NCBI GenBank assembly: GCA_965219605.1
Contig: CBDCOC010000004.1
Coordinates: 28,000 to 91,999, forward strand
Length of the DNA stretch: 64,000 nt
Source of the DNA: Bryobacterales bacterium
Lineage (GTDB): Bacteria; Acidobacteriota; Terriglobia; Bryobacterales; UBA6623
Direction: 5' to 3'
Position 1 is the first letter of the stretch. The number at the start of each line of letters is the position of its first letter. The position numbers were made by a program, and so were the translations under genes. Shown here piece by piece: positions 28,483-62,493 of this stretch. The notes beneath the pieces were generated by a model. It did no database searches. It was not told the DNA's origin and worked only from the letters and a program-made list of their open reading frames with translations.

Positions 28483-28760
28483 CAGGACGAATTCGGTCTC
28501 TCGTACGGTGAAGAGGGAGGACCAAGCCAGTCGCGCCCCCGGGCGGGGCCCGGATCATTCGGTTGGAAACACGTGGCTTGGCGTAGAATCAGAGCGGAGG
28601 GTTCCGGCAGTCAAGCCCCGTAATTTCATTGGTGCAGTATTTGCCCCAAAGCCAGTCTGGGTCCGGGCGAGCGATCATTCACTAGCGAGGTTTCTTCGGA
28701 AGCACTCCTCAACACCAGCATTGCAGAGCAATTGCCAACCCGGGCCGGGGCCTTCCGTGT

Positions 28761-30345: not shown

Positions 30346-30479
30346 AGGACCAGGGCTGCCAGCCCAAGCAGGTGCTTGCGATAGCGCGCGGACAGTCCGC
30401 GCCAGGCGAGCGGGGCCCGGTGGCGGCGGTCGAGCGCGTGCGAGCCGTGCTCGCGGGCATGGTGGTGGTCATGCATGGT

Positions 30480-33699: not shown

Positions 33700-36600
33700 T
33701 CAGCCGCCGCGCTGCAACTCGGCCTGCTTGAGCACCCACTCGCGAATTACGCCGTAACCGCGGTCGCTCGCCTCGTAGCGAACGCCGCCCTGGTGCCCGT
33801 CTTCCTCGCCGGATTGAATGTTCAGCGGCTTGCGCAGGAACTTACTGCTCTCCACGTCGTGCAGGTCGACGCGCTCTTGCATGCGCCGGTAATTGCCCAG
33901 CAGCGCCTCGGGCGGGATGTAGCCGGCTGCGTCCGGAGCCTCCAAGTACAGCGTCGGCACGCGCCCCGGCACGCCGTGGCAAGAGATGCAGGCGCGGTTG
34001 TCCCGCGGATCGATGCGCGTCATCTCTGTGAACACGTAGTCGCGGAAGTGAATGATGTCGGCGATCCACTCGTCGGTGTCGGATAGCGGGCGGACAGCGC
34101 TGCCAGGTTGCCCGCGGCTGCCTTCGCTGATGATCTCGCGCAAGCGCTTGCCGTAGATCTTGTCATCGCTGTTGAGGATGTTCTGGATGCGGTTGCGGTA
34201 GACCGGGCTCGGTTCGTGCTCGATCCAGGCCGCCAGGGCCCGCAACACCTCGGGGTGGCGCCGCAGGGCGGTCTTGTTGGCGAGCGCGATTGCCTGCTTG
34301 CGCACGCTCTCGGGGGAGTCCGCGGCGAACCAGGCCGTGAACATACCGATCAATCTGTCCTTGGCCTCCTTGATGGGGTCGATCACGTCCACGCCCAGCT
34401 CGTCCGTAGTGAACAGCGAGCCGGCGATCTCGCCGGGCTCGATCTTCAGGTAGTCCAGCCCGAAAATGTAGTTGGGCTCGGCTTCGTCGCTGGCCCCGAC
34501 CATGCGGAAGGTCAGCCGGTTGCGCCCCTCGCGGAACTCATGCACGCCCAGCGACACGGGGCCAAGCGCGGTGAGCTGCGCGCGGTAGAGGTCGATGGCG
34601 CCTCCGATGCCCTCGCCGTTGAGGAACGGCTGGACGATGCCCATTTCGCGGTCGTGCAGGAACGCTGCGACAAGCTCGTAACGGCCGGCTGCGGGCGCAT
34701 GCACGCCGAATGTGAGCTCATTTCCCGGCAGTCCTTCGCGCCACCACAGGACGGTGTTCAGGCTTGCCAGGCCGTCCGGCACGAGTTGCTTGGTCGTCCG
34801 CCCGCCAGTCAGATCCAAAACCTCCAGATCCTCGCCCTCGGTTGCGCCTTTGACGGCCTCTTCAAGCGTCGGCCCGGTTTCTTGGTAGCGAAGCATCCAT
34901 TCGGTTGACGGCAGCCAGAAGAGCGCGTCCCCGCCGACATGGTCGAAGGCGGAGCGACGGTGGAGCGTGGGGTTGTCGCCTAGGACCTTGCCCAGCAGCG
35001 CCGCCCTCCCGCCTTGCGCCGCGGAGCGGCCCCGCGCGCCGGGAGCCGGCCGGCCGAGCAGGTGCGTCGCGGCGGCGATCGGAGGCTGCCGCCCTGCCGG
35101 GACGAGCAGCCTGAAGAACTCGCGCTCGGTCTCCGCGCTATCCTCTCCCTCGCCGAATTGCCAGCGCACCCGGGACAGGAAACGGACGAGCGCCTCGGCA
35201 TCGGCCTGGCGTCCGGCCGCGAGGAATGCGTCCAGCTTGGCGAGCAGCGGCCGGATCGTGCCGGCATCGCCGCGGAGTCGCAGGGCGCTGGGATTGGACA
35301 GCGCCTTGGCCGCCGCCGCGACCTGTTCCAAATCGTCGCCTTGCAGGAGTTGCAGCAGGTGTCCCTGCAACGGAGCTGAATTCACGTTGGCGGCCCCTTG
35401 TAGCGCGATAGAGCGCCACGGCACCTGCCCGTCGTCGCTGCGCGTCTGGTAGACGTTGAGCAGGATGTCCCCGATCAGCTCGGTCGCGCCCGGTGTCGAA
35501 TAGCCGAGCTGGCCCGGGCCGCCATCGCCCCCGCGCTCCTCGAAATGGGTCGCCGCGACAGCCGCTAGGCGCTGCTCGAGCCGGTCACGGCGGATCCCCT
35601 CGCGCGAGCGGGCCGCCGCCAGCATCTGGTACAGGTCCTCCAACTCGCGATACTGCTGCGCGCGGTTGTCCCGGCCGGTCTGATTCGCGATCTGGCCGTT
35701 GACGATGAGCATGGAGGCGGTCGAGTAGCGCATCGCGTTCTCGACGTGGCCATTCCGCTCCGGGCGGAGCAGAGCACTGACCCAAGCGCGGTTGATGCGC
35801 TGCCGCAAGGGCGGGTTCCAGACCCACTGGCGCCAGGCCGACTTGAACGCATAGGCCCGCACGCCGGGGAAGGGATCCCGCATGGCGGCGGCGAGCAGGG
35901 AGGCCAGTTCGTTACGATCCACTCGCGAGCCCGGCCCGGCGAGATCGGCCCGCATGGTCAGCGCCTGCAGGACCGACTGGCGTGCGCGCTCGTCCCCGCC
36001 GCGGTAGGCGGCCAGCGCGGCCGGCCAGCCTTGGTCATCCAGAAGTAGCTGGCGCAAGGACCAAAAGGCCGCCTCGCGACAGGCCTTGACCGGGTCGGAC
36101 AGGCCTGCGACCAGCGCTGGAATGCCGCTGGCGGCCAGCGCTCCGCCTATGCCGAGATAGCCGTAGTAGCGGACTTGGGGCATTTCGTCCGCGCTGGCGT
36201 CGATCATCAGGTCGGCAAAGTCGGCCCTTCCGGTGGCTTGCAGCGCTCGCGCGCGCGACAGCCGTTGCAGCGGGGATTCGCCGGGTTGCGGTTCGAACTC
36301 GCTGCGCTCGAACGGCCGGGCATCGCCCGGGAACAGGCGGCTGAGGGCGCGGATGACATAGGCGTTGGTGACGAAGCCGGTCTGCGCCGAGCGGTTCCAG
36401 AGGCCGTACTCGAATTGCTTGCCGAGCAGCCACTGCACGGCGCGCCGGACGGGCGGGCTGTCCGGGCCGTGGCCCGCGGCTCGCAGCGCGATCAGGGATA
36501 CCGCCGTGGGCGCCGGATCCCCGTCCTCGTCGATCCGCTGCCAGGAGTCCGCGGCTTGGTCATGCACGCCCAGGTCGAATCCCCACGACCCGTCCTCCTG

Positions 36601-38628
36601 CTGCAATGCCAGCAGCCGCCGCAGGTCGCGCTCGGCTTGCTTCCGGAACGCCGGCAGCAGTTCTCGCCCGCGCCTGCCCAGCTCCGAGTCCGCGTCCAGC
36701 CCGGCCAGTTCCTCGCGCGGCAGCAGGTCGTGGAAAAACTCGATGCGGTGCCCAAGGTCGTCAACCACCTTGAGCCGTGCGTCGCCGGTCGCGACGATCT
36801 TCTCGGCCTTTTCCAGCAGTCCGGCGAGATACTTCTCCTCGCCGCTGTCGCGCCATGCCCGCTCAAGGATCTCGGCCGCAAACTTGAAAACCACGTTCGG
36901 GCCGAAGTTCGAACCCTTGCCGGCGGCGTTGATGCCCTGCGGGTCGTTGGTTTGCAGCACGTAGTTAGCGGTGCGCCTCTGCTGGTAGGAGTGCAGCCTC
37001 TTGGGCTTGAAGGTGCGCTCGTGCAGCACCACATTGCGGCCGGCCACCCGGCTGCCCGCAGGCGCGTCGCCCAAATCGTTGGGGGCCAGGGACGTGTTGA
37101 CAGCGGCGTCCACGAGCTCGTTCGTCGGGCGCAGGCTCTCGTACATCGTGTTGACGAGCCTGCGGTGGTTCTGGACCGTTCCGTCCGGGCGGTAGCCATG
37201 CCGCAGGGCATCGGCGACGCCCCAGACCCCGCTCTGGGTGTGGCAGCTCATGCAGTTCTCCCCGAACAGGCTCGAGCCGTCCCGCACGCGGCGGTGGACA
37301 GCGATGTTGCGCGGGCGGTGGATCAGCCACGCATCGATCTCGGCCAGGTGGTAGTAGATGGATTGGCGCAGCGCCTGCTGCGGGTTGTCGAACGGGGCCG
37401 GCTCGGTCAGGCGCACTTCCAGCTCGTAGCCCGGCTGGTTGGCTTCCACCCGGAGGTAATACGTGCCGCCGGGATGCACGCGCCGGGTGACGAATGAGCG
37501 GAAGTTGTCGTCTTGCTGGTGGATGCGCTCGTTCACGTCGCGGCCGTCGTAATAGGTGTAAACCTGCTCCGGGCCCGGGATGACCTCGGTGTCGGGATGG
37601 ATGTAGGGCACGGCCTCGCTGTTGCCGAAGTCCTCGCGCTTGGCCGCCTCGCGGTGTTCCAGATCCCGGGCGCTGGGCGCGCCCGGCTTGTAGACCCGGA
37701 TGCGCGCGCTGACGACCGGTTCGGCCATCTGCAGGTTGGCTGTCAGTAGCTTGACCTTGTCGCCCCTGTAGACGAACCGGTACCAATCGTCGGGCGAGTT
37801 CCCGGAAGCGGCGTTGTCGAAGTACTCGAGTTCGTCGGAGCCGCCGATGACGCGCAGGACTTGGTCGGCGTTGCCCGCCGCGAAAGGCAGCGCGACAGAC
37901 TCTTCGGGAGTGTTGTTGGGCTCGGTCTCGAGCACGATGTCGCCCGCGGCCGTGAGGGGTACCGGTGTGACAGCGATACGGATTCCTAGCGCCGCTATGG
38001 CTGGTGTCGGTGCTGGCGGGGTGGCCGCAAGCCGGGCAAGGCCGCTGTCGCGATGGTATGGCGCGGAGGGCCAAGGGGCTTCGGTGATGGTCGCCAGCGC
38101 CAGTTCGTAAGGGCCGCTGCGCGGAGCCTTGTAGACCATGTACAGATCCGGGTCCAAGGCATGCAGGACCTTGGTCCAGCCGTTGGCCTCGCCCCGGACG
38201 AGGTCGCCCCGGTGCATTGGCGCATCGCTTGCGGCGGCATCTTGCGGGCCTCGCCACCGCACGGAGATGCGGCCGTTCTCGGGAAGCTTTCCCGGGCTGT
38301 TGATGCCCACCTGGATCTGCACCGCCTGCCCCTTGGCTAGCTCCCACGAGCGCGTCCATAGCCCGTCGAACGGGACGGTCTCGCCGAATGCTGTTCCGGA
38401 CAGGAGGGCGCAGAGGCATGCGGCGAGCAATTGCCGCTGGCCGCCGCGCCGGGCGCTGCGCTGCGTCCGGAAGACTTGGTTCATGGCGAGAGATTGTCCG
38501 GCAAGCGAGGAGGTGCGACAACTCCGCGCGGCGCGGCTTGCGGGTTTGCCGCCTGCCGGCCGCCCGGAGTGAATTCCTGCAAAGCGCATTTTCCTGCCAA
38601 TCGCCGCGCAGCGGAGCGGTTGGCACAT
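33700..38628 (-). CDS. Very large secreted multidomain protein with two c-haem motifs, HEAT-like and prenyltransferase/terpene-cyclase-like repeats. The likely start is Met ~38487.
   Basis: 1642 aa. The signal peptide is QRQLLAACLCALLSGTAFG. Haem motifs are CMSCH and CISCH. QQEDGSWGFDLG is a squalene-cyclase-like repeat. The C-terminal block RACISCHGVPG..LHDVESSKFLRKPL resembles Planctomycete cytochrome C-type domains. Confidence 0.55.
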   Translation of the reverse strand: MCQPLRCAAIGRKMRFAGIHSGRPAGGKPASRAARSCRTSSLAGQSLAMNQVFRTQRSARRGGQRQLLAACLCALLSGTAFGETVPFDGLWTRSWELAKGQAVQIQVGINSPGKLPENGRISVRWRGPQDAAASDAPMHRGDLVRGEANGWTKVLHALDPDLYMVYKAPRSGPYELALATITEAPWPSAPYHRDSGLARLAATPPAPTPAIAALGIRIAVTPVPLTAAGDIVLETEPNNTPEESVALPFAAGNADQVLRVIGGSDELEYFDNAASGNSPDDWYRFVYRGDKVKLLTANLQMAEPVVSARIRVYKPGAPSARDLEHREAAKREDFGNSEAVPYIHPDTEVIPGPEQVYTYYDGRDVNERIHQQDDNFRSFVTRRVHPGGTYYLRVEANQPGYELEVRLTEPAPFDNPQQALRQSIYYHLAEIDAWLIHRPRNIAVHRRVRDGSSLFGENCMSCHTQSGVWGVADALRHGYRPDGTVQNHRRLVNTMYESLRPTNELVDAAVNTSLAPNDLGDAPAGSRVAGRNVVLHERTFKPKRLHSYQQRRTANYVLQTNDPQGINAAGKGSNFGPNVVFKFAAEILERAWRDSGEEKYLAGLLEKAEKIVATGDARLKVVDDLGHRIEFFHDLLPREELAGLDADSELGRRGRELLPAFRKQAERDLRRLLALQQEDGSWGFDLGVHDQAADSWQRIDEDGDPAPTAVSLIALRAAGHGPDSPPVRRAVQWLLGKQFEYGLWNRSAQTGFVTNAYVIRALSRLFPGDARPFERSEFEPQPGESPLQRLSRARALQATGRADFADLMIDASADEMPQVRYYGYLGIGGALAASGIPALVAGLSDPVKACREAAFWSLRQLLLDDQGWPAALAAYRGGDERARQSVLQALTMRADLAGPGSRVDRNELASLLAAAMRDPFPGVRAYAFKSAWRQWVWNPPLRQRINRAWVSALLRPERNGHVENAMRYSTASMLIVNGQIANQTGRDNRAQQYRELEDLYQMLAAARSREGIRRDRLEQRLAAVAATHFEERGGDGGPGQLGYSTPGATELIGDILLNVYQTRSDDGQVPWRSIALQGAANVNSAPLQGHLLQLLQGDDLEQVAAAAKALSNPSALRLRGDAGTIRPLLAKLDAFLAAGRQADAEALVRFLSRVRWQFGEGEDSAETEREFFRLLVPAGRQPPIAAATHLLGRPAPGARGRSAAQGGRAALLGKVLGDNPTLHRRSAFDHVGGDALFWLPSTEWMLRYQETGPTLEEAVKGATEGEDLEVLDLTGGRTTKQLVPDGLASLNTVLWWREGLPGNELTFGVHAPAAGRYELVAAFLHDREMGIVQPFLNGEGIGGAIDLYRAQLTALGPVSLGVHEFREGRNRLTFRMVGASDEAEPNYIFGLDYLKIEPGEIAGSLFTTDELGVDVIDPIKEAKDRLIGMFTAWFAADSPESVRKQAIALANKTALRRHPEVLRALAAWIEHEPSPVYRNRIQNILNSDDKIYGKRLREIISEGSRGQPGSAVRPLSDTDEWIADIIHFRDYVFTEMTRIDPRDNRACISCHGVPGRVPTLYLEAPDAAGYIPPEALLGNYRRMQERVDLHDVESSKFLRKPLNIQSGEEDGHQGGVRYEASDRGYGVIREWVLKQAELQRGG

Positions 38629-39818: not shown

Positions 39819-41414
39819 TCACGGCCCGAATGCGCGCTTGATGTAGCGCGCGTACTCCGGCCGGTCGCGCCACTCGTCGACATAGCGCGCGTAGCCGTCT
39901 TGCGTCATCCACCAGCGCGGCTCCGTCTCTTTGCGGTCAAAGTCGCCAGCGGGGTAATCGGCGCCGTCGGCGCTGGCTTGGACCGATGCGTTCCAAGCTT
40001 CCACCGCTGCCCGCAACCGGGCCGCCTCGCCGGGCCGGTCGGACGAGATATCGGCGGTCTCTCCCGGGTCGGCGGACAAGTCGAACACTTGGTAGGGCGC
40101 CTCGTCGGCGCTGTTGCGGACGATCTTGAGATGATTGTCGATCAACGCGATCCGCCCGCCGTGGCGGAATCCGATCGCTTGCTCGCGCCGGCCGGGTTCG
40201 CCCTCGAACAGGGGCCGCAAGTCGATGCCGTCCTGCGGCTGCAACGCTGCCTCTGGCGGCAGGCCGGCGATGGCCGCGACCGTGGGGAAGATATCCATCG
40301 TGACGCTCGGGAACTTCGTGACACGGGGTTGCCGGATGCCTTCCGGCCACTCGATAATCGCCGGAACCCGAATGCCGCCCTCGTGCAGGCTGCCCTTGAA
40401 GCCGCGCAGCCCCGCGACCGTTCCCGGCTCGATTTTGGGCAGCCCGCCGTTATCGCTGGTGAACCAAAGCACGGTGCGGCGCTCGATCTGCAACTCGCGC
40501 AAGCCGGAGCGCAGGGTGCCGATGCTGCGATCCATCGCGGCCAGTTCGCCGTAGTGGTGCCGGGAGTTTTTATCCAAGCCGGCGAAAGGGGCGCGGTCTT
40601 CCGCGGAGGCGATCCACGGGGAATGCGGGGAGCCGTACCAGATCACCGCGAAGAATGGGTTGGAGCGCTCGACCTGCCGCCGGATGAATCCCAGCGCCTC
40701 GGCAACGATCACCTCGGAAGAATCTCCTCGGTGCTGCACGAAGAGACCTTCGCGGCTCATCAGCGGATCCCGTTCGAAGAAGTTCGTCACCGACAGCCAT
40801 GTGTCGAACCCGAACACTCCCGGGTGGTGCGTGTCGTCCGCCAGGACCGGCACGCCGGGGCCCCGCAATCCGTTGAGGTGCCACTTGCCGAAGTGAGCGG
40901 TGGCGTAGCCGGCTTCGTTCAGCGCCCGCGCGATTGTCCGCTCCTGGCGCCGCAGCGCGAAGCCGTGGTCTTGCACGCCTGTGCGGTCATTGGTCCGGCC
41001 CGTCATGACGGTGGCGCGCGTGGGCGAGCAATTCGGCGCACCCGCGTAGAAGCGGTCGAACCGCAAGCCGGCCGCAGCCATGGCGTCAAGCTGCGGTGTT
41101 TGCAGGACAGGGTGGCGGTAGTAGCCGGTTTGGCCCCAGCCCATGTCGTCGGCCATCACTAGCACGAAGTTGGGCCGCGGATCGGCCGCTTGCTCGGGCG
41201 CGGCGCACCCCGAGATGCTGAGCATGGACAGGGCCAAGCTGGCCGCTCGGCAGGTTTGATAGGGTTGTGGCCGGAATCGCATGGGGGCTTCGATTCTAGC
41301 AACGGGCGGATCCGCTGCATCTGCTGCCGGGCATGGCGTCCGGGATCTCTGCTTCGATGCGCGGAGCATTCGCTTGAGGTCTGCAAAACCTTTATTCGTG
41401 GGTTCGATTCCCAC
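39819..41414 (-). CDS. Arylsulfatase family protein; the probable true start is Met ~41285 (lipoprotein-like signal LSISGC)
   Basis: Formylglycine motif CSPTRATVMTGR. Sulfatase metal-ligand blocks DDMGWG and GKWHLNG are present. Confidence 0.8.
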   Translation of the reverse strand: MGIEPTNKGFADLKRMLRASKQRSRTPCPAADAADPPVARIEAPMRFRPQPYQTCRAASLALSMLSISGCAAPEQAADPRPNFVLVMADDMGWGQTGYYRHPVLQTPQLDAMAAAGLRFDRFYAGAPNCSPTRATVMTGRTNDRTGVQDHGFALRRQERTIARALNEAGYATAHFGKWHLNGLRGPGVPVLADDTHHPGVFGFDTWLSVTNFFERDPLMSREGLFVQHRGDSSEVIVAEALGFIRRQVERSNPFFAVIWYGSPHSPWIASAEDRAPFAGLDKNSRHHYGELAAMDRSIGTLRSGLRELQIERRTVLWFTSDNGGLPKIEPGTVAGLRGFKGSLHEGGIRVPAIIEWPEGIRQPRVTKFPSVTMDIFPTVAAIAGLPPEAALQPQDGIDLRPLFEGEPGRREQAIGFRHGGRIALIDNHLKIVRNSADEAPYQVFDLSADPGETADISSDRPGEAARLRAAVEAWNASVQASADGADYPAGDFDRKETEPRWWMTQDGYARYVDEWRDRPEYARYIKRAFGP

Positions 41415-48992: not shown

Positions 48993-50009
48993 ATGACTTG
49001 GAGGGGGAAATGCCTGCCGCTCGCGCTCGCGCTGCTGGTTGCCGGCGTTCTGCCCGCCAACGACGAGGACTCGAAAGGCGGCAAGCCGAAGAACGCCAGG
49101 CAGGATGTCGAAGCGATCGGCGAGCGTGACGTCGGCAAGGGGGTCAACTTCTACTCGATCGAGAAGGAAATCGCGCTCGGCAAGCGCATGGCCCAGGACG
49201 TCGAACGCAACTCCAAGATTGTCGACGATCCCGTGATCGCCGAGTACGTGAACCGGGTGGGCCAGAACTTGGTCCGCAATTCCGATGCCAAGGTGCCGTT
49301 CACGATCAAGCTCATCGACAGCCCCGACATCAACGCTTTCGCCCTGCCGGGCGGCTTCTTCTTCGTCAATTCCGGCCTGATGCTGCGGGCTGAGAGCGAG
49401 TCCGAGCTTGCCGGCGTCATGGCGCACGAGATCGCCCACGTGGCGGCCCGCCACGGCACCCGCCAAGCCACCAAGGGCCAGCTGGTGCAGATCGCCTCGA
49501 TCCCGCTGCTGTTCATCGGCGGCTGGACGGGCTACGGCATCTACCAAGCCAGCAACTTCCTGATCCCCATGACCTTCCTGAAGTTCTCGAGACGCATGGA
49601 GTCGGAAGCCGATTTCCTGGGCGTGCAATACCTTTACAAGGCGGGATACGACCCGACCTCGTTCGTCGACTTCTTCGAAAAGATGCTGGCCGACGAGAAA
49701 CGCCGCCCGGGCACGATTTCGAAACTGTTCCGCAGCCACCCGCCGCACGGTTCGCGCATTCGCAAGACGCAGAAAAACATTGACACCCTGCTGCCGGGCA
49801 AGGCCGAGTATGTCGTCAACACCTCGGAGTTCCTGCAGGTCAAGGCCCGGCTCGAGCAGCTCGTGCTGCGCCGCAAGGAAGCCTCCGACGACCCCAGCAA
49901 GCCGCGCCTGCGGCGGACAAGTTCCGGGGGCACGATACCGACCGACGATATCGACGTGGAATCGACGGAAGAGGAAGAGGACGAGCGTCCGACGCTCAAG
50001 CGCCGCTGA
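48993..50009 (+). CDS. M48-family zinc metalloprotease (BepA/LoiP-like), secreted
   Basis: Signal peptide followed by the HEIAH zinc motif (MAHEIAHVAARH), with ESEADFLGV supplying the downstream glutamate. Confidence 0.85.
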   Translation: MTWRGKCLPLALALLVAGVLPANDEDSKGGKPKNARQDVEAIGERDVGKGVNFYSIEKEIALGKRMAQDVERNSKIVDDPVIAEYVNRVGQNLVRNSDAKVPFTIKLIDSPDINAFALPGGFFFVNSGLMLRAESESELAGVMAHEIAHVAARHGTRQATKGQLVQIASIPLLFIGGWTGYGIYQASNFLIPMTFLKFSRRMESEADFLGVQYLYKAGYDPTSFVDFFEKMLADEKRRPGTISKLFRSHPPHGSRIRKTQKNIDTLLPGKAEYVVNTSEFLQVKARLEQLVLRRKEASDDPSKPRLRRTSSGGTIPTDDIDVESTEEEEDERPTLKRR

Positions 50010-50019
50010 GCGCGCACCT

Positions 50020-51867
50020 TCAGTCGGCGTTAATGCTGCGGCCGAGATCGCGCGGTCGGTCTACGTCGCAGCCCCGCAGCACGGCCGTATGGTAGGCCAG
50101 CAGTTGCAGCGGGATGTGGGCGACCGCCGCTTGGAGCGGCTCGCGCACGGCCGGCACGCGGATCACTTCGTGAGCGTATTGGGCGATGCACGCGTCCTCC
50201 TCGTTCGCGACGCAAATGACCCGGCCTTGGCGCACCGTCACCTCCCGCACCTGGGATAGCGTTTTTTCGTAGCGCAGCCGGCTGCGAGCGTCGCCTTGGT
50301 CGACTGTGGCGATCACCACCGCGACCAGGTCCGAGCCGACGACCGCAGTGGGGCCGTGGCGCATCTCGCCGGCCGCGCAAGCCTCCGCCTGGATGCCGGA
50401 CAACTCCTTGAGCATGCGCGCCGCCTCCAGCGCGATCGGATAGTGGATGCCGCGCCCTAGGTAGAGGACTTTGCCCTCGTGGGCGAGCTGGCGCGCCACG
50501 CGCTCGCAGTCGGAGGCCAGTTCCAAGGCCGACTCGACCCGGCTGGGAAGCTCCAGCAAGTCGTGCGCGTGCCGTCGCGACATGTCGCGGGAGAGTGCGC
50601 CGCGGGCCTGGCCCAAGTACATCGCGAAGAGGTACAGCGCCGTCAGCTGCGCAGAGAAGACCTTGGTGGAGACAGCCGCCAGTTCGGGGCCGGCGTGGGT
50701 GTGGATCGCACCGCGGGCGTTGTGGGCCATCGTCGAGTCGACGGAATTGCAGATGGCGATGGTCTTCGACCCTAGTTCGTGCGCCAGCTGCTGCGCCGCC
50801 AGGGTATCGGCGGTCTCCCCGGACTTGCTGATGACCAGCGAGAGCACACCCTCGTCGATGACGGGGTCGCTGTAGCGGAACTCGCTGCCGAATTCCACCT
50901 CCACATGCACGCGGGCCAAGCCCTCGATCATGCTCTTGGCGATCAGCGCGGCATGCCACGAGCTTCCCGAGCCGATTACATTCAGGTGCTGCACTGCCCG
51001 TAGCTCGCGGAGCGTCACGCCCAACTCGTCGAACACCACGTTGCCGCTCTCCTCATCCAAGCGGCCAAGGGACGTATCCCGTATGGCGCGCGGCTGCTCG
51101 AAGATCTCCTTGAGGACGAAGTGCTTGTAGCCGCTCTTTTCCGCCAGCAGCGGATCCCACAAGACGTGATGCACCGAGCGCGTCACGCGCCGAGCGTCGG
51201 AATCCATCATCTGCACCCCGCGCGCGGTCAGGACTGCGATATCGCCGTCCTCGAGCTGGATCATGTCGCGCGTCCGGTGCAGGATGGCGGGCTTGTCCGA
51301 GGCGATGAAATTCTCGTGCTTGCCCAAGCCGACCAGCACGGGCCTGCCTAGGCGCGCCGCCACTACCTTGCCTGCCTCGTCGCTGGCAATCGCGGCGAGC
51401 GCGCAGATGCCCTCGATGTGGGCCGCCAAGCGCCGCACGGCTTCCTCGAGCGGCGCACCCTCTGCGCGCCAACGGTGGAGCAGCAGTTCCAAGGCCGCGG
51501 TGGCACCGATGGACTGCCGGCGCGCGGGGCCGGCCGGGAGCAGCTCCCGGATACCGTCGAGATTGCCTGCCTCGCCGGAAAGGACGACCGCGACGTCCCG
51601 CTTGGGCAGCTTGCCGGGCGCAGGCCGCGCAAGGTGGTGCGCTATCCAACTGGTGTGGCCCACGCCAAAGGTGCCGCGTACCGGATCGAGACGGGCCGCG
51701 GTTTCCAAATTGCGCAGGGTGCCGGTCGTGTGGCGCGAATGCAGGCGCTTGGACGAGCCGACGGAGAGCCCCGCCGAGTCGTGTCCGCCGTATTCGAGGC
51801 GGCGGAGACCGTCCAGTATGACCGCGGCCGCTTGCTTGCGCCCCGCGTATCCGACGATTCCAGCCAT
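50020..51867 (-). CDS. glmS: Glutamine--fructose-6-phosphate aminotransferase homolog with a degenerate glutaminase domain (Cys1 replaced by Ala)
   Basis: The 615-aa protein is collinear with GlmS (RLEYGGHDSAG; SIS domains; C-terminal PLQLLAYHTAVLRGCDVDRPRDLGRSI). It begins MAGIVGY rather than MCGIVGA, and the N98-G99 equivalent reads SG. The 822-aa ORF in the supplied track is an out-of-frame extension. Confidence 0.75.
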   Translation of the reverse strand: MAGIVGYAGRKQAAAVILDGLRRLEYGGHDSAGLSVGSSKRLHSRHTTGTLRNLETAARLDPVRGTFGVGHTSWIAHHLARPAPGKLPKRDVAVVLSGEAGNLDGIRELLPAGPARRQSIGATAALELLLHRWRAEGAPLEEAVRRLAAHIEGICALAAIASDEAGKVVAARLGRPVLVGLGKHENFIASDKPAILHRTRDMIQLEDGDIAVLTARGVQMMDSDARRVTRSVHHVLWDPLLAEKSGYKHFVLKEIFEQPRAIRDTSLGRLDEESGNVVFDELGVTLRELRAVQHLNVIGSGSSWHAALIAKSMIEGLARVHVEVEFGSEFRYSDPVIDEGVLSLVISKSGETADTLAAQQLAHELGSKTIAICNSVDSTMAHNARGAIHTHAGPELAAVSTKVFSAQLTALYLFAMYLGQARGALSRDMSRRHAHDLLELPSRVESALELASDCERVARQLAHEGKVLYLGRGIHYPIALEAARMLKELSGIQAEACAAGEMRHGPTAVVGSDLVAVVIATVDQGDARSRLRYEKTLSQVREVTVRQGRVICVANEEDACIAQYAHEVIRVPAVREPLQAAVAHIPLQLLAYHTAVLRGCDVDRPRDLGRSINAD

Positions 51868-51881: not shown

Positions 51882-52133
51882 CTAGGGACCGTCTAGCACG
51901 CTTACTTCGTAATCTTCGATCACCGGATTGGAGAGCACCTCGGCAGCTATCCGCTCCACGCGCTCGCGGGCGGCTTGGGGACTGCTGCCGGGAGCGAGCT
52001 CGATCTCGAAGAACTTGCCTTGGCGCACGTCGACGACTTCGGCGTGGCCATGCCCCTGCAGCGCCTTGGTGATGGCGCGTCCCTGCGGATCTAGCACGGT
52101 TCGTTTCGGGGCGACTCGGACGATGGCCTTCAA
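51882..52133 (-). CDS. purS: Phosphoribosylformylglycinamidine synthase subunit PurS
   Basis: 83 aa. The MKAIVRV..KRTVLDPQG..I...L...G......V..GK.FEIE pattern is typical of PurS. Confidence 0.8.
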   Translation of the reverse strand: MKAIVRVAPKRTVLDPQGRAITKALQGHGHAEVVDVRQGKFFEIELAPGSSPQAARERVERIAAEVLSNPVIEDYEVSVLDGP

Positions 52134-52258: not shown

Positions 52259-53629
52259 CTACTTGCCGATGCAGAAGGTCGAGAAGATTTGCTCCAAGAT
52301 GTCGTCCACCGAGGTTGCGCCCGTGATGGCGTCCAGCGGCTGGAGAGCTTCGTACAGGTCGAGCAGCAGCATTTCGTGCGGGACGCTCGCGCGAACGCCC
52401 GCCATGGCCCGTTGCAGGCACTGCAACGCTTCGCGCAGCAAGCGCTCCTGGCGGATGTTGGTGACCAGCGCTCCCTCGTGCGACGCATCCAGGCCGGGCA
52501 GCGCGCGCTCGCGGATCCGCTCGCGCAGGCTTGCGATGCCGTCGCCCGTCTTGGCCGACACGGCGATCATTTCGTCCGCGCCGGGGCGCTGGCGCGGCAG
52601 GTCGAGTTTGTTGCCCACCAGCAGTGCCGGGCAGAGCGAGCTCGCCCGCTGCCATAATTCGTCGTCTTGGCACGCGCCGGGCTGCGACAAGTCCACGACG
52701 ACCAAGGCGCAGTCGGCCTCCTGCAAGCTCTGCCACGAGCGCTGGACGCCCTCCGCTTCGATCTCGCCAGCGGCCGCCCGGATGCCGGCGGTGTCCAGCA
52801 GTTCCACCGGCACCCCGTCGAATGACACTGTCTCGTTGATCGAGTCGCGCGTTGTGCCCGCGGCGGCGTTGACGATGGCCCTCTCGCGCCCCAAGAGACG
52901 GTTGAACAGGCTGGACTTGCCCACGTTCGGGCGGCCAATGATGGCAAGGCGCAGCCCGCCGCGCACCACCTTGCCGATACAGAAGCCGGCCGCCAAGGCG
53001 TTGACCTGCCGCTCGATCTCCGCCAGTGCCCCCGCGACCGCCGCGCTGTCCTCGACCTCTACGTCGTCCTCGGCGAAGTCAATGCCGGCCTCCAAGCGTG
53101 CAATCAGCGCTAGCAGACCCTGCTTGATGCCACGCAGCCGCTTGGACAGCGCCCCGGTTGTCTGCTGGGCGGCAAGCCTGGCTTGGTAGAGGGTGACAGA
53201 GTCGATCAGGTCGCGCACCGCCTCGGCTTGGACCAGATCCATGCGCCCGTTGCGCCAGGCGCGCCGCGTGAACTCGCCCGGCTCTGCCAGCCGGGCCCCC
53301 AGCTCGGCGGCGCGCTCGAGTGCGTGGCGCAGCACCGGCGGCGCGCCGTGGCACGAAATCTCGACCAAGTCCTCGCCGGTATAGCTGGCCGGCGCCCGGA
53401 ACAGCGTCACCAGCACTTGATCCACCACGGCGCCGGCGGCATCGACCAAGGCATCGACGGCTGTCTCGCGCGGCCGCCAGCGCTTGCGCCGCAAGAGGCC
53501 GCCGGCGATTTCAACCGCCTTGGGCCCGGAGAGACGGACCAGCCCGACCGCCGAGCGGCCGGGCGGCGTGGCGGGCGCGACGATGGTGTCCGCGGCCGCT
53601 GCCGACAGGTGCGGGTTGAGAGGTGGCAC
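52259..53629 (-). CDS. mnmE: tRNA uridine-5-carboxymethylaminomethyl modification GTPase MnmE
   Basis: G-domain motifs GRPNVGKSSL, DTAG and NKLD. The C-terminus ends in the CIGK tetrapeptide diagnostic of MnmE. Confidence 0.9.
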   Translation of the reverse strand: MPPLNPHLSAAAADTIVAPATPPGRSAVGLVRLSGPKAVEIAGGLLRRKRWRPRETAVDALVDAAGAVVDQVLVTLFRAPASYTGEDLVEISCHGAPPVLRHALERAAELGARLAEPGEFTRRAWRNGRMDLVQAEAVRDLIDSVTLYQARLAAQQTTGALSKRLRGIKQGLLALIARLEAGIDFAEDDVEVEDSAAVAGALAEIERQVNALAAGFCIGKVVRGGLRLAIIGRPNVGKSSLFNRLLGRERAIVNAAAGTTRDSINETVSFDGVPVELLDTAGIRAAAGEIEAEGVQRSWQSLQEADCALVVVDLSQPGACQDDELWQRASSLCPALLVGNKLDLPRQRPGADEMIAVSAKTGDGIASLRERIRERALPGLDASHEGALVTNIRQERLLREALQCLQRAMAGVRASVPHEMLLLDLYEALQPLDAITGATSVDDILEQIFSTFCIGK

Positions 53630-56645: not shown

Positions 56646-56733
56646 GTCGTCCCCCCGGTGTTCTCATGCGGACGCGGAAGCCGTGCGTTTTGGCCCGCTT
56701 GCGCCGGTTCGGCTGGTAAGTTCTCTTCGGCAT
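56587..56733 (-). CDS. rpmH: 50S ribosomal protein L34
   Basis: [45 protein letters not shown] is near-canonical L34. Confidence 0.9.
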
Positions 56734-56847
56734 GGTCTGCCCTGTTCGTTCGGCTTCGCCCGGGCGCGCAGCGCCCCGGTTCCCTAAAGTCACAGCTTAG
56801 CACAGCGGTGCCGGCAGGAGGGAAGCGCGATTTGCCCGGATCCTGCA

Positions 56848-58211
56848 TGCGGGCTATGCTGGTTGCTCGCATGCAGCGGTTTCTGCTTGCCTTGACGCTG
56901 GCCGCCTGCCCCTTGCCGGCCCAAGTCGCGCGCCTGGCCGAAGGCGGCGCGCTGAAAATGCTCTATGACAGCCGCATGTACCCCCAGGCGGTTGTGGCCG
57001 GAGGGCGCTTGCACGCGGTCTGGCGGGGCGCCGGGGGGCTACCTTGGATTCGCTCCTACAGCCTCGCCGAGCGCAAGTTCTCCGCACCGCGCATGCTGCT
57101 AGCGGGTACCGGCATCGAGATTGACGCCGAGCGCTTCGCACGGGACCAGCACTACGCGCCGATCATCTGGGCCGACGGGGACGGTCGCCTGCATGTGGCC
57201 TTCGGCTTCCATCGCACGGCCGGCTATCACCTGGCGGCGAGCCGGCCCGGCAGCGTCGATGCTTGGGAACGGCTGCCGGAGATATCGGACTCGGTGTCCT
57301 ATCCGCAGGCGCACAGCCTCCCGGATGGCAGGACGTTGGTGTATTTCCGCGAGAGCGGCCACCTGGGGTTCTGGACCTACCGCACGTCGGACGACGGCGG
57401 CCGGACTTGGCAGGGGCTGGCGGAACCCGTGATCGATATGGATGCCCCGCCGCGCGAGTCGCCACTGGCGAGACACGCAGGGTCGTACCAGACCACGCAA
57501 GTCAGCGCAGACGGGAGCACCCTGCACATCGCCTTTATCTGGAAGGTGGAGGAGCCCATCGCCAGCCAGCGATATGGATCCGTGCTGCATGACTACACGC
57601 GCCGCCACAACCTCTACTACGTGCGGGCCGATCTCGCATCCGGCCAGGTTTTCAACGCGCGCGGCCGGCGATTGCCCAGGCCGGTGAACTTCGCCACCGC
57701 CCAGCGGCACTGCTTGGTGCTGGATACCGAGGGCGGCAGCGCATCGGTCGGCCCCTCGATCGCGCTCGGCCCCCGCGGGGAGCCGAACTTCCTGCTGCCC
57801 GTATCGGGCAAGACGCCTTACGCTTCCAAGTTCTATTTCGTCCGCATGCAGGACGGCAAGTGGGACAAGACGCCACTCGCTGCGACCGGGCACCCGTTCA
57901 ACTCGGCCCATTTAGCGGCCCGCGCTGATGGGTCTTTCCAAGCCTTCCTGATCGCCGGGGAGGGCGAGGCCAGAGAGGACACGCTGATGAACAGCTACGG
58001 CTGGGGCGATCGCGTCGAGGAGTGGGTGTCGGACAGGGGCGGCGTCCGCTGGAGGCGTTCCGAAGACCTGACCCCAGAGCCGGGGCTGCGCTACCAAGGC
58101 GTCAAATTCGTGCGGGGCGCAGACGGGCGGAGCGTGGCCGGCCTGCTGCTGTTCTACGCTTGGCAGGGAACCGGCGGCGGCTCAGCCTTCTTGCTGGACC
58201 GGCGCGACTAG
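56848..58211 (+). CDS. Secreted BNR/sialidase-fold repeat protein (BNR_4-like)
   Basis: Signal peptide MRAMLVARMQRFLLALTLAACPLPAQ. The BNR motif SDDGGRTW is present. The long ORF in the supplied track that starts at 56658 is an upstream out-of-frame extension. Confidence 0.6.
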
Positions 58212-59337: not shown

Positions 59338-61179
59338 ATGTTCGCTAGAATTGCGCTCTTGGCCGCGTTTGCCTGTGCGTCGGCCAACGCCGCCCAGCCC
59401 AACATCTTGTGGCTCAGCTCAGAGGACAACGGGCCGCAACTAGGAATCTACGGGGACGAATACGCGGACACGCCGAACCTTGACGACCTAGGCTCCAAGG
59501 GCATGATCTATCGTCATGCCTGGTCAACGGCCCCGGTGTGCGCCCCGGCGCGCACGACCATTATCAGCGGGATGTACCCCCCGTCGCTCGGAGCGCAGCA
59601 CATGCGCTCTATGACACGGCTGCCGGCCTCCATGCGCATGTTTCCCCAATACTTGCGAGACGCCGGCTATTACGCCTCCAACAACGCCAAGGAAGACTAC
59701 AACCTAGAGAAGCCCGGCAAGGTCTGGGACGAGTCCGGCGGCAAGGCGCACTGGCGCAAGCGAGCGCCGGGCCAGCCGTTCTTTTCCGTGTTCAATTTCA
59801 CGGTCACGCACGAATCCCGGATCCGCCGCCGGCCGCACGTGCCCGTTCATGACCCCGCCCGGGCGCCCGTGCCGGCCTACCATCCCGACACTGAAGAGAG
59901 CCGCGCCGACTGGGCCCAGTATTACGACAAGGTCAGCGAAATGGACGCGCTGGCAGGCCGTGTGCTGGCTGAGTTGCGCGAAGACGGGCTTGAGGAGGAA
60001 ACGATCGTCTTGTACTGGGCCGACCACGGCCCCGGCATGCCGCGCGGCAAGCGCTGGACCTACAATTCAGGCCTTCATGTCCCGCTCATCCTCTACATTC
60101 CGGAACGCTTCAAGCAGCTACGCCCGCCCGAATACGCCGCTGGCGGCGAGAGCGAGCGCTTGGTCGGTTTTGTTGACTTCGCGCCGACCGTCCTGAGCCT
60201 GGCTGGCATTGAGCCGCCCGCGCACTTGCAAGGCCACGCCTTTGCCGGGGAGTTCGTCGCGCCCCCCCAGCCCTATGCCTACGGTTTTCGCGGCAGGATG
60301 GACGAGCGCTACGACATGGTCCGCAGCGTCTCCGACGGCCGTTTCGTCTACATCCGCAACTTCATGCCCCACCGCATCTACGGACAGTACATCCAGTACA
60401 TGTTCCAGACCCCGACCACGGCGGTTTGGCACCGGCTTTACCAGGCCGGCCTGCTGCGCCCGCCGCGGACCCATTTCTGGGAAGTAAAGCCGGCCGAAGA
60501 GCTCTACGACTTGGACCGCGACCCGGACGAGACGCGCAACTTGGCATCCAGCCCCCAGTACAGCCAAGATCTCGAGCGCTTGCGGGAGGCCCGCCGCGAG
60601 TGGTCGCTTGCGATCCGCGATCTCGGCTTCCTTCCCGAGAGCGCGATTCACGCCCGGGCGGGGAATGACGCTCCGTATTCGATGGGCGCTAATCCGGGAC
60701 GCTTCCCGATGGCTCGCATCATGCGCATGGCTGAGTTGGCGTCATCCATGGAAGGCGGGGCGGAAGCTGACTTGCGCCGAGGGTTTGACGATAGCGACAG
60801 CGCGGTCCGCTATTGGGCGGCCATGGGCGCCCTCGTGCGCGGCCGCGACGGCGTGGAGGCACTCGCCGGCCCGCTGCGGGCGGCACTGGACGACGCCGAT
60901 CCCGCAGTCCGTATCGCAGCGGGCGAAGCACTCGGGCGCTATGGCCGCGAGGCCGACGCCGAACGCGCGCTGGAAGTGCTGGTGCGGCATGCCGACACCC
61001 GCCAGCACGGCCTGTTCGCTGCGATGGCCGCGCTCAACGCGCTGGACTACATGGAGGAGCGAGCCAGCCCGGCGCTGGAGCGGATCTTGGCCGTGCCGCA
61101 GGAAGATCCGCGCTATGGCTCGCGCTTTCGCCCCTACTTGCCGAACCTGATCAGCAAGATCCGGGCCGATGCGGAATAG
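59338..61179 (+). CDS. Sulfatase family protein with C-terminal HEAT-repeat domain, secreted
   Basis: Signal peptide. The formylglycine motif is CAPARTTIISGMYP. The C-terminal ~170 aa has HEAT-like repeats (DSDSAVRYWAAMGAL, DADPAVRIAAGEALG). Confidence 0.8.
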   Translation: MFARIALLAAFACASANAAQPNILWLSSEDNGPQLGIYGDEYADTPNLDDLGSKGMIYRHAWSTAPVCAPARTTIISGMYPPSLGAQHMRSMTRLPASMRMFPQYLRDAGYYASNNAKEDYNLEKPGKVWDESGGKAHWRKRAPGQPFFSVFNFTVTHESRIRRRPHVPVHDPARAPVPAYHPDTEESRADWAQYYDKVSEMDALAGRVLAELREDGLEEETIVLYWADHGPGMPRGKRWTYNSGLHVPLILYIPERFKQLRPPEYAAGGESERLVGFVDFAPTVLSLAGIEPPAHLQGHAFAGEFVAPPQPYAYGFRGRMDERYDMVRSVSDGRFVYIRNFMPHRIYGQYIQYMFQTPTTAVWHRLYQAGLLRPPRTHFWEVKPAEELYDLDRDPDETRNLASSPQYSQDLERLREARREWSLAIRDLGFLPESAIHARAGNDAPYSMGANPGRFPMARIMRMAELASSMEGGAEADLRRGFDDSDSAVRYWAAMGALVRGRDGVEALAGPLRAALDDADPAVRIAAGEALGRYGREADAERALEVLVRHADTRQHGLFAAMAALNALDYMEERASPALERILAVPQEDPRYGSRFRPYLPNLISKIRADAE

Positions 61180-61974: not shown

Positions 61975-62493
61975 AAAGTGAAGAAAAGCCATGCTGCGCT
62001 CACTGTCATCACCGCTAATCCGAAGTTCCAAGAGACTCTTCCAATGCGAAATGAGACTGAAGAGCGGGGTTGTTCCAACGGGAAGTAGACTAAAGGGCCT
62101 CGCGAGGGGATTTGGGAAGCATGGTTGCGTCAGGACAAGTCTTGGAGGGAAGGAAAGCCAATGAGCTGAAACTTCTCGCAGCGAGCCAGCGGGTTCGACT
62201 CCTGTCCGGCAAAGGTGCAGCCCAGCAGCCGCGAGTGAGTGTTGCATGGCCTCTGGTAACGCAGGTCGTGAAGCTTACGCAACGGGCGGCGAAGCGCCGG
62301 TATCGAGACTCGCAATCCTCCTTGTCGGTGCCTTCAGCGTCCATTGCCTTGGGGAGCAGCACCGCCAGAGCCGCTAAGGGCAAGGCGCTGGGGGATCGGC
62401 CGGGGACCGAGAGGAAGTGAGGCACCTGCTGTTCGCGGCTATCCGCACGAAGTAGGGCGGGACACTGCGGCAAAACGGATGCTATAGGAGACG

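What the first reader, a model, noticed from the sequence alone, without database searches (positions are those of the whole stretch)
50020..51867. GlmS homolog lacking the N-terminal nucleophile Cys (MAGIVGY) and the oxyanion-hole Asn
The protein is full-length and otherwise well conserved through both SIS domains. The essential Cys1 is Ala (GCT), which needs two base changes from TGY. The N98-G99 equivalent is S-G. Such a protein cannot hydrolyse glutamine. It may be an ammonia-dependent isomerase/aminotransferase, a pseudo-enzyme or regulator, or a paralog, in which case a canonical glmS exists elsewhere. Its position next to purS-mnmE is housekeeping-like.
Basis: partly seen in the sequence, partly recalled or inferred. 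Interest (0 to 1): 0.55.

Follow-up and report, generated by a model that had tools for sequence, protein, structure and literature searches.

The report
GlmS ortholog with dead glutaminase domain
In one uncultured lineage of soil Acidobacteria, the gene sitting where the essential amino-sugar enzyme GlmS normally sits has lost everything needed to use glutamine, yet it is still kept intact by selection, so it must now work without glutamine or do a different job.

Summary
No Pfam GATase model matches. In the isomerase half, K485M, K503R and K603R are changed and the C-tail is rewritten.

It is not an error or a stray paralog. About 48 full-length protein clusters (52-99% identity, Bryobacterales/Acidobacteriota assemblies) form one clade in an NJ tree, and all lack Cys1 (Ala, Ser or Pro). 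They occupy the slot that holds canonical Cys1 glmS in relatives (mnmE-purS-glmS, with M48 convergent in the closest relative).

Both domains are under purifying selection (dN/dS 0.26 for the N domain, 0.11 for the C domain). The eight former glutamine-site positions now drift. All 13 fixed differences from canonical GlmS lie in the isomerase domain. The phosphate cradle and E488 are invariant, and H504 is kept in 44 of 46.

Best reading: a glutamine-independent SIS phosphosugar enzyme, most likely interconverting Fru6P + NH3 and GlcN6P, with a vestigial N domain kept as scaffold. I could not determine whether these genomes carry another glmS. It is a new variant of a known kind, of moderate interest.

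The parts
50020..51867 (-). Cys-less GlmS-derived gene, 615 aa plus stop
   Evidence: ORF and translation. 36% identical to E. coli GlmS over the full length. TIGR01135 scores 536 bits against a cut-off of 418.
51154..51867 (-). N-terminal Ntn (class II glutaminase) fold, residues 1-238, catalytically dead
   Evidence: No Pfam GATase hit. C1A, R26G, R73S, T76A, H86 deleted, H97L, N98S, D123A. The AF2 model has a confident core and Foldseek matches full-length GlmS. dN/dS is 0.11-0.33.
51862..51864 (-). Codon 2, GCT (Ala), in place of the nucleophile Cys1 (TGC in canonical relatives)
   Evidence: Clade relatives carry TCC/TCG (Ser) or GCN (Ala), which suggests the path TGC > TCC > GCC.
51574..51579 (-). 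S97-G98, the equivalent of the oxyanion-hole N98-G99
51646..51651 (-). S73-W74. The glutamine-carboxylate Arg73 is lost. The ammonia-channel gate Trp74 is kept and invariant in the clade.
50020..51123 (-). Twin-SIS isomerase domain with C-tail, residues 249-615 plus stop
   Evidence: Pfam SIS x2, E = 1.4e-44. Foldseek against E. coli and human isomerase domains gives TM 0.93, rmsd about 2 A. dN/dS is 0.05-0.2.
50404..50406 (-). Glu488, general base of the aldose/ketose isomerisation, retained
   Evidence: Invariant in 46 of 46 clade members. Lies 16 residues before His504, as in GlmS, FrlB and NagB-II (PMC10285752, PMC10201695).
50356..50358 (-). His504, ring-opening residue, retained
   Evidence: 44 of 46 in the clade. 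Codon verified.
50413..50418 (-). R484-M485. A new clade-invariant Arg sits next to the lost Lys485.
   Evidence: L484R is a fixed difference (Arg484 invariant in A1). K485 is M 28, K 15, Q 3 in the clade.
50038..50040 (-). Arg610, in place of the Schiff-base Lys603
   Evidence: In the clade this position is R 27, K 18, E 1, against K in 72 of 72 canonical sequences.
51882..52133 (-). purS, immediately upstream and probably co-transcribed. A conserved partner of both the Cys-less and the canonical glmS.
52259..53629 (-). mnmE, part of the conserved yidC-jag-mnmE-purS-glmS arrangement
48993..50009 (+). M48 peptidase, convergent. Its stop lies 10 nt from the stop of the glmS-like gene. It is a synteny marker shared with the nearest canonical relative, P0048.

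Best explanation
This is the in-place descendant of the housekeeping glmS gene in one Bryobacterales lineage, and it has become glutamine-independent.

Shown:
- The Ntn glutaminase active site is erased, and its former catalytic positions now drift freely.
- The N domain as a whole is still under purifying selection, and no member sampled has lost it.
- The twin-SIS domain keeps the phosphate cradle (S303, S347, S349, T352, S401) and the Glu488/His504 pair. It carries 13 fixed, clade-specific substitutions clustered in the active-site segments.
- The Schiff-base Lys603, Lys485 and the C-tail that seals the ammonia channel are no longer constrained.

Inferred:
- The protein is a working SIS-type phosphosugar enzyme that uses the Glu/His chemistry shared by GlmS, the NagB-II/GlmD deaminases and the FrlB deglycases.
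- My favoured reaction is Fru6P + NH3 <-> GlcN6P, either as a deaminase or as an ammonia-dependent synthase (about 0.35-0.4 on its own). A related hexose-6-phosphate is the alternative.
- The dead N domain is kept as a structural lid or partner of the isomerase dimer, not as a new ligand site.
For: - Residue table: C1A, R26G, R73S, T76A, N98S and D123A, with E488, H504, S303, S347, S349 and T352 kept.
- No GATase Pfam hit, but the two SIS repeats score E = 1.4e-44.
- The clade is monophyletic in an NJ tree, Cys-less throughout and full length: 609-619 aa in every clean assembly. The one apparent 432-aa form comes from an assembly in which the neighbouring genes are also fragmented.
- Same slot as canonical glmS.
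- dN/dS is 0.26 for the N domain and 0.11 for the C domain in the least saturated pair.
- Mean entropy of the 8 glutaminase-site positions is 1.84 bits, against 0 in canonical sequences. All 13 fixed differences are in the C domain and none in the N domain.
- NagB-II catalysis rests on S52, S97, E227 and H243, which equal GlmS 303, 347, 488 and 504 (PMC10201695). The Glu/His pair 16 residues apart is shared with FrlB (PMC10285752).
- In the AF2 model both domains are folded. Low confidence is limited to the Q-loop, the linker, the His-loop and the C-tail. Foldseek's top hits are E. coli GlmS, including the engineered C1A mutant 3OOJ.
Against: - No activity data exist.
- K485 and K603, both in the sugar site of canonical GlmS, are replaced in most members. 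A simple 'same reaction with NH3' may therefore be wrong, and the substrate may have changed.
- From my own knowledge, E. coli GlmS does not use free ammonia efficiently.
- The protein scores far below the curated cut-offs for NagB-II (99 against 430 bits) and GlmD (76 against 580).
- Retention of Glu/His could serve ligand binding only.
- I could not establish whether the genomes hold another glmS or a nagB, which bears directly on the physiological role.
Confidence: 0.55

Rival explanations
1. It is a non-catalytic pseudoenzyme: a sensor or regulator that only binds a hexose or hexosamine 6-phosphate. It might, for example, form heterodimers with, or titrate, a canonical GlmS encoded elsewhere.
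For: Lys603 and Lys485 are unconstrained and the C-tail is rewritten. The whole glutaminase site is dead. GlmS dimerises through its isomerase domains (PMC10087520).
Against: E488 is invariant and H504 nearly so, with strong purifying selection on the C domain (dN/dS 0.05-0.11). That pattern is more typical of a catalyst. No canonical partner GlmS was found on any Mb-scale contig carrying the Cys-less gene, among the roughly 190 closest canonical clusters. This is only a weak negative.
Confidence: 0.2
2. It is the only GlmS of these organisms and makes GlcN6P from free ammonia. The emptied glutamine pocket and the retained Trp74 channel would serve as the NH3 entry path. Amino-sugar synthesis in this lineage would then be ammonia-dependent. 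This is a specific sub-case of the best explanation.
For: It is the positional ortholog of canonical glmS in a housekeeping cluster. No second Bryobacterales-type glmS was seen on the same contigs. W74 is invariant and the catalytic Glu488/His504 pair is kept. The pocket residues were replaced mostly by small ones: A/S/P at position 1, S/G at 73, A/S/G at 76, S/A at 98.
Against: The Schiff-base Lys603 is Arg in 27 of 46 and Glu in one, K485 is mostly Met, and the C-tail that walls the channel has diverged. The search for a second glmS was very incomplete, because the genome scan failed.
Confidence: 0.2
3. It is still a glutamine-dependent GlmS that uses another nucleophile.
For: Ten clade members have Ser at position 1, and Ser or Thr act as Ntn nucleophiles in other Ntn hydrolases (my own knowledge). 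NCBI pipelines name the protein glmS.
Against: The window protein and most of the clade have Ala or Pro at position 1. Arg73, Thr76, Asn98 and, in about half of the members, Asp123 are lost as well, and these positions vary freely.
Confidence: 0.03
4. It is a sequencing or assembly artefact, or a decaying pseudogene.
For: Some long-read assemblies in the clade carry frameshifts (L095). One NCBI entry, P0015, has a wrong N-terminus.
Against: The reading frame is intact at full length in about 48 independent clusters. dN/dS is well below 1 in both domains. Codon 2 is Ser or Ala in all seven Cys-less genes whose DNA I read.
Confidence: 0.01

Closest known systems
Canonical bacterial GlmS (glutamine--fructose-6-phosphate aminotransferase, EC 2.6.1.16; E. 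coli structures 2J6H, 4AMV)
   Same: The two-domain architecture, length and fold are the same. It sits in the same genomic slot as in related Acidobacteria. The phosphate-binding Ser/Thr residues, Glu488, His504 and Trp74 are kept. It passes the TIGR01135 cut-off.
   Different: There is no Cys1 and no oxyanion Asn98. Arg73, Thr76 and Asp123 are missing. Lys603 is Arg and Lys485 is Met. The C-tail NLAKSVTVE has become DLGRSINAD. Thirteen fixed substitutions lie in the isomerase domain.
Engineered E. coli GlmS C1A mutant (PDB 3OOJ)
   Same: It has the same Cys1-to-Ala replacement in a full-length protein, and it is among the top structural matches.
   Different: 3OOJ is a laboratory point mutant with every other residue canonical. 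Here the whole glutamine site and parts of the sugar site have diverged naturally and been maintained over a long evolutionary time.
SIS-fold GlcN6P deaminases NagB-II (Shewanella, 8EOL/3HBA) and archaeal GlmD (2CB0)
   Same: They are glutamine-independent and share the same four residues named as catalytic or phosphate-binding: GlmS 303, 347, 488 and 504 (PMC10201695). This is the chemistry I propose for the window protein.
   Different: These enzymes are about 330 aa, SIS-only, with no Ntn domain. The window protein scores far below their curated cut-offs (99 against 430, and 76 against 580 bits). It arose independently, from within GlmS.
FrlB/FraB fructosamine-6-phosphate deglycases
   Same: They have a twin-SIS fold and a Glu and His exactly 16 residues apart (PMC10285752).
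   Different: The sequence relationship is very distant (NF008481 scores 22 bits). They have no N-terminal domain and act on a different substrate.
Beta-lactam synthetase and carbapenam synthetase, derived from AsnB (from my own knowledge, not tested here)
   Same: This is the classic precedent for a class II amidotransferase descendant that keeps a vestigial Ntn domain lacking Cys1, while the other domain carries the (new) catalysis.
   Different: The C-terminal domain is unrelated (an adenylating synthetase, not SIS). These are secondary-metabolism paralogs, not the positional ortholog of a housekeeping gene.

Membership tests
GlmS (TIGR01135, EC 2.6.1.16) | N-terminal nucleophile Cys directly after the initiator Met | tested here: not met
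   The gene starts ATG GCT (Ala). The clade has A 34, S 10, P 2 and no Cys.
GlmS (TIGR01135, EC 2.6.1.16) | Glutamine-binding and oxyanion residues Arg73, Thr76, Asn98-Gly99 and Asp123 | tested here: not met
   The window protein has S, A, S-G and A at these positions. All are invariant in the 72 canonical relatives and variable in the clade.
GlmS (TIGR01135, EC 2.6.1.16) | Recognisable class II GATase domain (Pfam GATase_6/7) | tested here: not met
   No GATase family matches at E <= 0.01. The fold is nevertheless predicted and matches GlmS.
GlmS (TIGR01135, EC 2.6.1.16) | Twin-SIS isomerase domain with phosphate cradle S303/S347/S349/T352 and catalytic Glu488/His504 | tested here: met
GlmS (TIGR01135, EC 2.6.1.16) | Schiff-base Lys603 in a conserved C-tail (NLAKSVTVE) | tested here: not met
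   Arg610 in the tail DLGRSINAD. The clade has R 27, K 18, E 1.
GlmS (TIGR01135, EC 2.6.1.16) | Profile score above the curated cut-off | tested here: met
   TIGR01135 scores 536.3 against 418, and NF001484 scores 552.6 against 381. This is why public pipelines name it glmS.
GlmS (TIGR01135, EC 2.6.1.16) | Orthologous genomic position | tested here: met
   The gene lies directly downstream of purS, as canonical glmS does in P0078, P0110 and P0048, and as in all nine other Cys-less-clade loci examined.
GlmS (TIGR01135, EC 2.6.1.16) | Glutamine-dependent GlcN6P synthesis | not testable with these tools
   This needs an enzyme assay or complementation.
SIS-type GlcN6P deaminase (NagB-II NF046059; GlmD NF041128) | Residues equivalent to SdNagBII S52, S97, E227 and H243 | tested here: met
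   S303, S347, E488 and H504 are present. The mapping comes from PMC10201695.
SIS-type GlcN6P deaminase (NagB-II NF046059; GlmD NF041128) | SIS-only architecture of about 330 aa, with a profile score above the cut-off | tested here: not met
   The protein is 615 aa with an N domain. It scores 98.9 against 430 bits and 76.1 against 580 bits.
SIS-type GlcN6P deaminase (NagB-II NF046059; GlmD NF041128) | GlcNAc6P allosteric site of NagB-II (R49, Y61, S77, R211, Y215, K219) | not tested
   I made no residue-level alignment to 8EOL.
Vestigial-Ntn-domain enzymes (beta-lactam synthetase type) | Class II GATase fold retained without Cys1 while the partner domain stays functional | tested here: inconclusive
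   Fold retention and loss of Cys1 are shown. Function of the partner domain is inferred from conservation only. This is an analogy, not homology of the C domain.

The most novel reading that the evidence does not exclude
In this Bryobacterales lineage the only GlmS ortholog has given up glutamine. De novo amino-sugar (UDP-GlcNAc, peptidoglycan, LPS) synthesis would then run on free ammonia through a naturally Cys-less GlmS. The hollowed glutamine pocket and the Trp74 channel would act as the ammonia inlet. This would be the first natural ammonia-dependent GlmS, and an exception to the rule that GlmS cannot use exogenous NH3.
Probability: 0.2. Interest if true: 0.75.

Novelty: new variant of a known kind. 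Interest (0 to 1): 0.5.

Why it matters
GlmS is treated as a near-universal, essential, strictly glutamine-dependent enzyme and as an antibiotic target.

- **A natural experiment.** A whole lineage in which the orthologous gene has lost glutamine use, yet stays under strong selection, shows which parts of the enzyme are needed for what. The Ntn domain appears to serve as scaffold. Lys603 and the C-tail appear to matter only when coupled to glutaminase.
- **Metabolism of the lineage.** The result points either to an ammonia-dependent route to amino sugars or to displacement of a core gene by an unseen replacement.
- **Annotation.** NCBI and JGI name these proteins 'glutamine--fructose-6-phosphate transaminase', because the TIGR01135 equivalog model still passes. 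Metabolic reconstructions of these Acidobacteria probably credit them with an activity the protein cannot have.

Tried and rejected
- **Second glmS in the window.** tblastn with E. coli GlmS and a canonical Bryobacterales GlmS found only the one locus. Pfam annotation of 20 other ORFs found no amino-sugar genes.
- **Second glmS in the same genomes, by contig length.** I matched 'longest_contig' lengths of canonical hits against the Mb-scale contigs that carry the Cys-less gene (6185587, 5785583, 6082869, 5890997, 4771363, 4444042, 3656389, 3300112, 2505908, 2194931). No match appeared among roughly 190 canonical clusters. This is only a weak negative, because each list is cut at 120 hits and a xenolog would rank lower.
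- **NCBI accession blocks.** Blocks for Cys-less and canonical Bryobacterales MAG proteins do not overlap, which is uninformative.
- **GTDB genome scan with the clade alignment.** This was wasted.
- **nagB or nagA in fetched flanks.** tblastn found none relevant.
- **SIS-only derivatives of the clade.** A search with the C domain alone found none. The single 432-aa candidate, P0403, lies in an assembly whose neighbouring genes are also split.
- **Literature.** Three full-text searches found nothing on natural full-length GlmS lacking Cys1.
- **RNA elements.** No glmS ribozyme or other Rfam element lies near the gene.
- **Ideas rejected.** A sequencing error, an alternative upstream start and a decaying pseudogene, for the reasons given under the rival explanations.
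Full report
**1. The observation**

The ORF at window 50020..51867 (minus strand) encodes 615 residues. It begins ATG GCT GGA ATC GTC GGA TAC, which reads MAGIVGY. It starts 14 nt after the stop codon of purS (51882..52133). The intergenic stretch contains no alternative in-frame start. The N-terminus aligns position for position with canonical MCGIVGY.

BLASTP against E. coli GlmS gives 36% identity over the full length, E = 6e-120. In E. coli mature numbering the window protein has these replacements in the glutaminase half:
- C1A, R26G, R73S, T76A, H97L, N98S (G99 kept) and D123A.
- The His86 region is deleted.

Pfam finds the two SIS repeats (E = 1.4e-44) but no GATase family at E <= 0.01. 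The NCBIfam glmS equivalog TIGR01135 still scores 536 bits against a cut-off of 418, so annotation pipelines call the protein GlmS.

The isomerase half is also less 'well conserved' than claimed. K485 is Met, K503 is Arg, and the Schiff-base Lys603 is Arg (residue 610 of the window protein). The C-tail NLAKSVTVE reads DLGRSINAD.

**2. Not an error, and not unique to this genome**

A search of 5.8 billion proteins returned a block of clusters (P0001-P0047 and P0049, later P0404) at 52-99% identity. Every one lacks Cys1. Among the 46 sequences tabulated, position 1 is Ala 34, Ser 10, Pro 2. The next hits, at about 50% identity, are canonical MCGIVGY proteins with every catalytic residue intact (72 of 72).

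Where sources give names, they read 'MAG: glutamine--fructose-6-phosphate transaminase (isomerizing) [Bryobacterales bacterium]' or [Acidobacteriia bacterium]. No cultured organism appears among them. A neighbour-joining tree shows the Cys-less sequences as one clade on a long stem, with P0049 (MSGIFGY) at the base. P0049 still has K485, K503 and K603 and weak GATase Pfam hits, so loss of the glutaminase site probably preceded remodelling of the isomerase site.

Codon 2 is TGC in canonical relatives. In clade members it is TCC/TCG or GCC/GCT/GCA.

In a library of 1.84 billion representatives clustered at 50% identity, the whole clade collapses into one representative, and the next is only 43% identical.

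**3. Positional ortholog, not a stray paralog**

In all nine other clade loci examined, the gene follows purS and is convergent with an M48 peptidase. In most of them it is preceded by (rnpA/yidD)-yidC-jag-mnmE. Canonical Cys1 glmS occupies the same slot in relatives:
- P0078: yidD-yidC-jag-mnmE-purS-glmS.
- P0110: purS-glmS.
- P0048, the closest canonical protein: mnmE-purS-glmS, followed by the convergent M48 peptidase.

The Cys-less gene is therefore the original glmS locus, changed in place.

**4. Selection**

I computed Nei-Gojobori dN/dS on the genes for which I hold DNA.
- For the least saturated pair (window against L092, dS about 0.5-0.66), dN/dS is 0.26 for the N domain and 0.11 for the C domain.
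- For L092 against L093 the values are 0.11 and 0.05.
- Canonical pairs show equal dN in the two domains.

Both halves are thus under purifying selection, with the N domain relaxed about two-fold. A search with the C domain alone found no SIS-only derivative. All clean members are 609-619 aa. The one 432-aa candidate lies in an assembly where the neighbouring genes are also broken by frameshifts.

**5. Where constraint was lost and where it was gained**

The eight glutaminase-site positions (1, 26, 73, 76, 86, 97, 98, 123) have zero entropy in canonical sequences. In the clade they average 1.84 bits, above the N-domain mean of 1.26. No N-domain position shows a fixed clade-specific replacement. 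The old glutamine pocket is therefore drifting and has not been rebuilt for a new ligand. The residues that stay invariant in the N domain are mostly Gly and hydrophobic core residues, plus Trp74.

All 13 fixed differences between the two groups lie in the isomerase domain: V263I, A299G, T302S, P321H, D325E, E361L, G398A, V399A, L484R, I489L, Y497C, K503R and N532Q. Most of them flank residues that are retained (S303, S347, S349, T352, S401 and E488 all 46 of 46; H504 44 of 46). They fall in three known active-site segments:

| Segment (E. coli numbering) | Canonical | Cys-less clade |
|---|---|---|
| 299-303 | ACGTS | GSGSS |
| 397-401 | IGVAS | LAA(a)S |
| 484-504 | LKLKE...YpAGEmKH | RmLqE...CAaGEmRH |

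K485 (M 28, K 15, Q 3) and K603 (R 27, K 18, E 1) have lost constraint.

**6. Structure**

AlphaFold2, run with the clade alignment, gives mean pLDDT 81.7. Both domains are folded. Low confidence is confined to residues 76-88 (the Q-loop), the interdomain linker, 501-508 (the His-loop) and the C-tail. From my own knowledge, these are the elements that are mobile in E. coli GlmS without ligands. PMC10087520 states this only for the C-tail, which orders on Fru6P binding.

Foldseek's best PDB matches are full-length E. coli GlmS (2J6H) and the engineered C1A mutant 3OOJ. The isomerase domain superposes on E. coli and human domains with TM 0.93 and rmsd about 2 A.

**7. Mechanism**

Established knowledge sets the frame:
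- The N-terminal Cys is the glutamine-attacking nucleophile and is indispensable in vivo (PMC10087520; PMC11822699).
- The C-tail closes the sugar site when Fru6P binds, and an ammonia channel links the two sites (PMC10087520).
- SIS-fold GlcN6P deaminases (NagB-II) catalyse GlcN6P <-> Fru6P + NH3 using residues equivalent to GlmS S303, S347, E488 and H504. No Lys is named among them (PMC10201695).
- FrlB deglycases share the Glu and His 16 residues apart (PMC10285752).

The window protein keeps exactly that minimal set and has lost everything specific to glutamine coupling. I therefore commit to a glutamine-independent SIS phosphosugar enzyme (confidence 0.55). Fru6P + NH3 <-> GlcN6P is the favoured reaction (about 0.35-0.4). 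A shifted sugar-phosphate substrate is the main alternative, given K485M, K603R and the new invariant Arg484. The N domain is most simply a retained structural lid or scaffold.

Rival explanations:
- Non-catalytic sensor or regulator: 0.2.
- Sole, ammonia-dependent GlmS of the organism, a sub-case of the best explanation: 0.2.
- Still glutamine-dependent: 0.03.
- Artefact or pseudogene: 0.01.

**8. What I could not settle**

I could not determine whether these genomes contain a second, canonical glmS or a nagB.
- Nothing of the kind lies in the 64-kb window.
- None of about 190 canonical acidobacterial clusters lies on a contig whose length matches the contigs carrying the Cys-less gene.
- NCBI accession blocks do not overlap.

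These negatives are weak. The decisive computation is a whole-genome search of the 5.79-Mb contig ctg6951c (ERZ24894574), apparently circular judging by its 'c' suffix, and its peers.

**9. Comparison with what is known, and novelty**

The protein works like a SIS deaminase or isomerase but is not a member of NagB-II or GlmD. It is far below their cut-offs, has a different architecture and has an independent origin. By descent and position it is a GlmS, but it fails the defining catalytic features of GlmS: Cys1, the oxyanion and glutamine-binding residues, and Lys603.

The nearest conceptual precedent, from my own knowledge, is the vestigial Cys-less Ntn domain of beta-lactam synthetase and carbapenam synthetase, both derived from AsnB. 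Three full-text searches found no description of natural full-length Cys-less GlmS.

Other isolated non-Cys GlmS-like representatives exist, for example Heyndrickxia oleronia, a Limnochordia MAG, and P0287 and P0289. Loss of Cys1 in GlmS homologs therefore recurs, and it is silently annotated as GlmS.

**Verdict:** a new variant of a known kind. Interest is 0.5. It would rise to about 0.75 if this protein proves to be the sole, ammonia-dependent GlcN6P synthase of the lineage.

Noticed in passing
L094:8001-9836 (Heyndrickxia oleronia, GCA_035809575.1 contig JARSIU010000017.1); protein cluster P0314/P0373: This cultured Bacillaceae species carries a full-length GlmS homolog that starts MSGIVGY (codon AGT). 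Every other catalytic residue is canonical. It is annotated as plain GlmS in many RefSeq genomes. The gene stands alone after a chemoreceptor gene, and no glmS ribozyme lies upstream, so it is probably a second copy.
   Followed up: partly
Proteins P0246 (Limnochordia MAG), P0287, P0289, P0345: These are further full-length GlmS-like representatives without Cys1. Some have additional glutaminase-site losses: P0287 has T76A, H86Y and N98S; P0289 has R73S, N98T and K603Q. Loss of the nucleophile has happened independently in several lineages.
   Followed up: no
window 3554-5401 (-): A 615-aa ORF combines a DruA (Druantia defence) N-terminal region with DDE_Tnp_1_assoc and DDE_Tnp_1 transposase domains. 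This is an odd fusion.
   Followed up: no
window 26707-33521 (-): A P-type ATPase (E1-E2 plus HAD) of 1013 aa carries a C-terminal SPFH/Band_7 domain. Two separate SPFH/Band_7 genes lie next to it. An IS110 transposase (28761-30182, +) is inserted between them.
   Followed up: no
window 33700-38628 (-): A 1642-aa ORF has only a marginal Pfam match (SQHop_cyclase_C, 26 bits). It is otherwise unannotated.
   Followed up: no
window 62196-62415 (+): Rfam finds a group II intron D1-D4 domain (RF02005, 93.5 bits) just downstream of pyrF, near the end of the window.
   Followed up: no
L003:11208-14107 and L004 (genome of P0034): In one branch of the clade, an NTP_transferase gene and a 742-aa PGM/PMM-domain gene follow the M48 peptidase next to the Cys-less glmS. 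This is a possible sugar-nucleotide link, seen only in that branch.
   Followed up: no
P0015 (NCBI MXY69077.1) and L095 (ENA ERZ19489113 s2337.ptg002716l): P0015 is deposited with an aberrant 556-aa N-terminus (MRGLWGG...). L095 has the gene and its neighbours split by frameshifts. Both look like annotation or assembly artefacts, not real truncations.
   Followed up: partly
window 39819-41414 (-), 59338-61179 (+), 56658-58211 (+): Two sulfatase genes (one fused to HEAT repeats) and a BNR_4 gene surround the housekeeping cluster. NCBI members of the same sub-clade come from MAG series that may be host- or marine-associated. The habitat was not checked.
   Followed up: no
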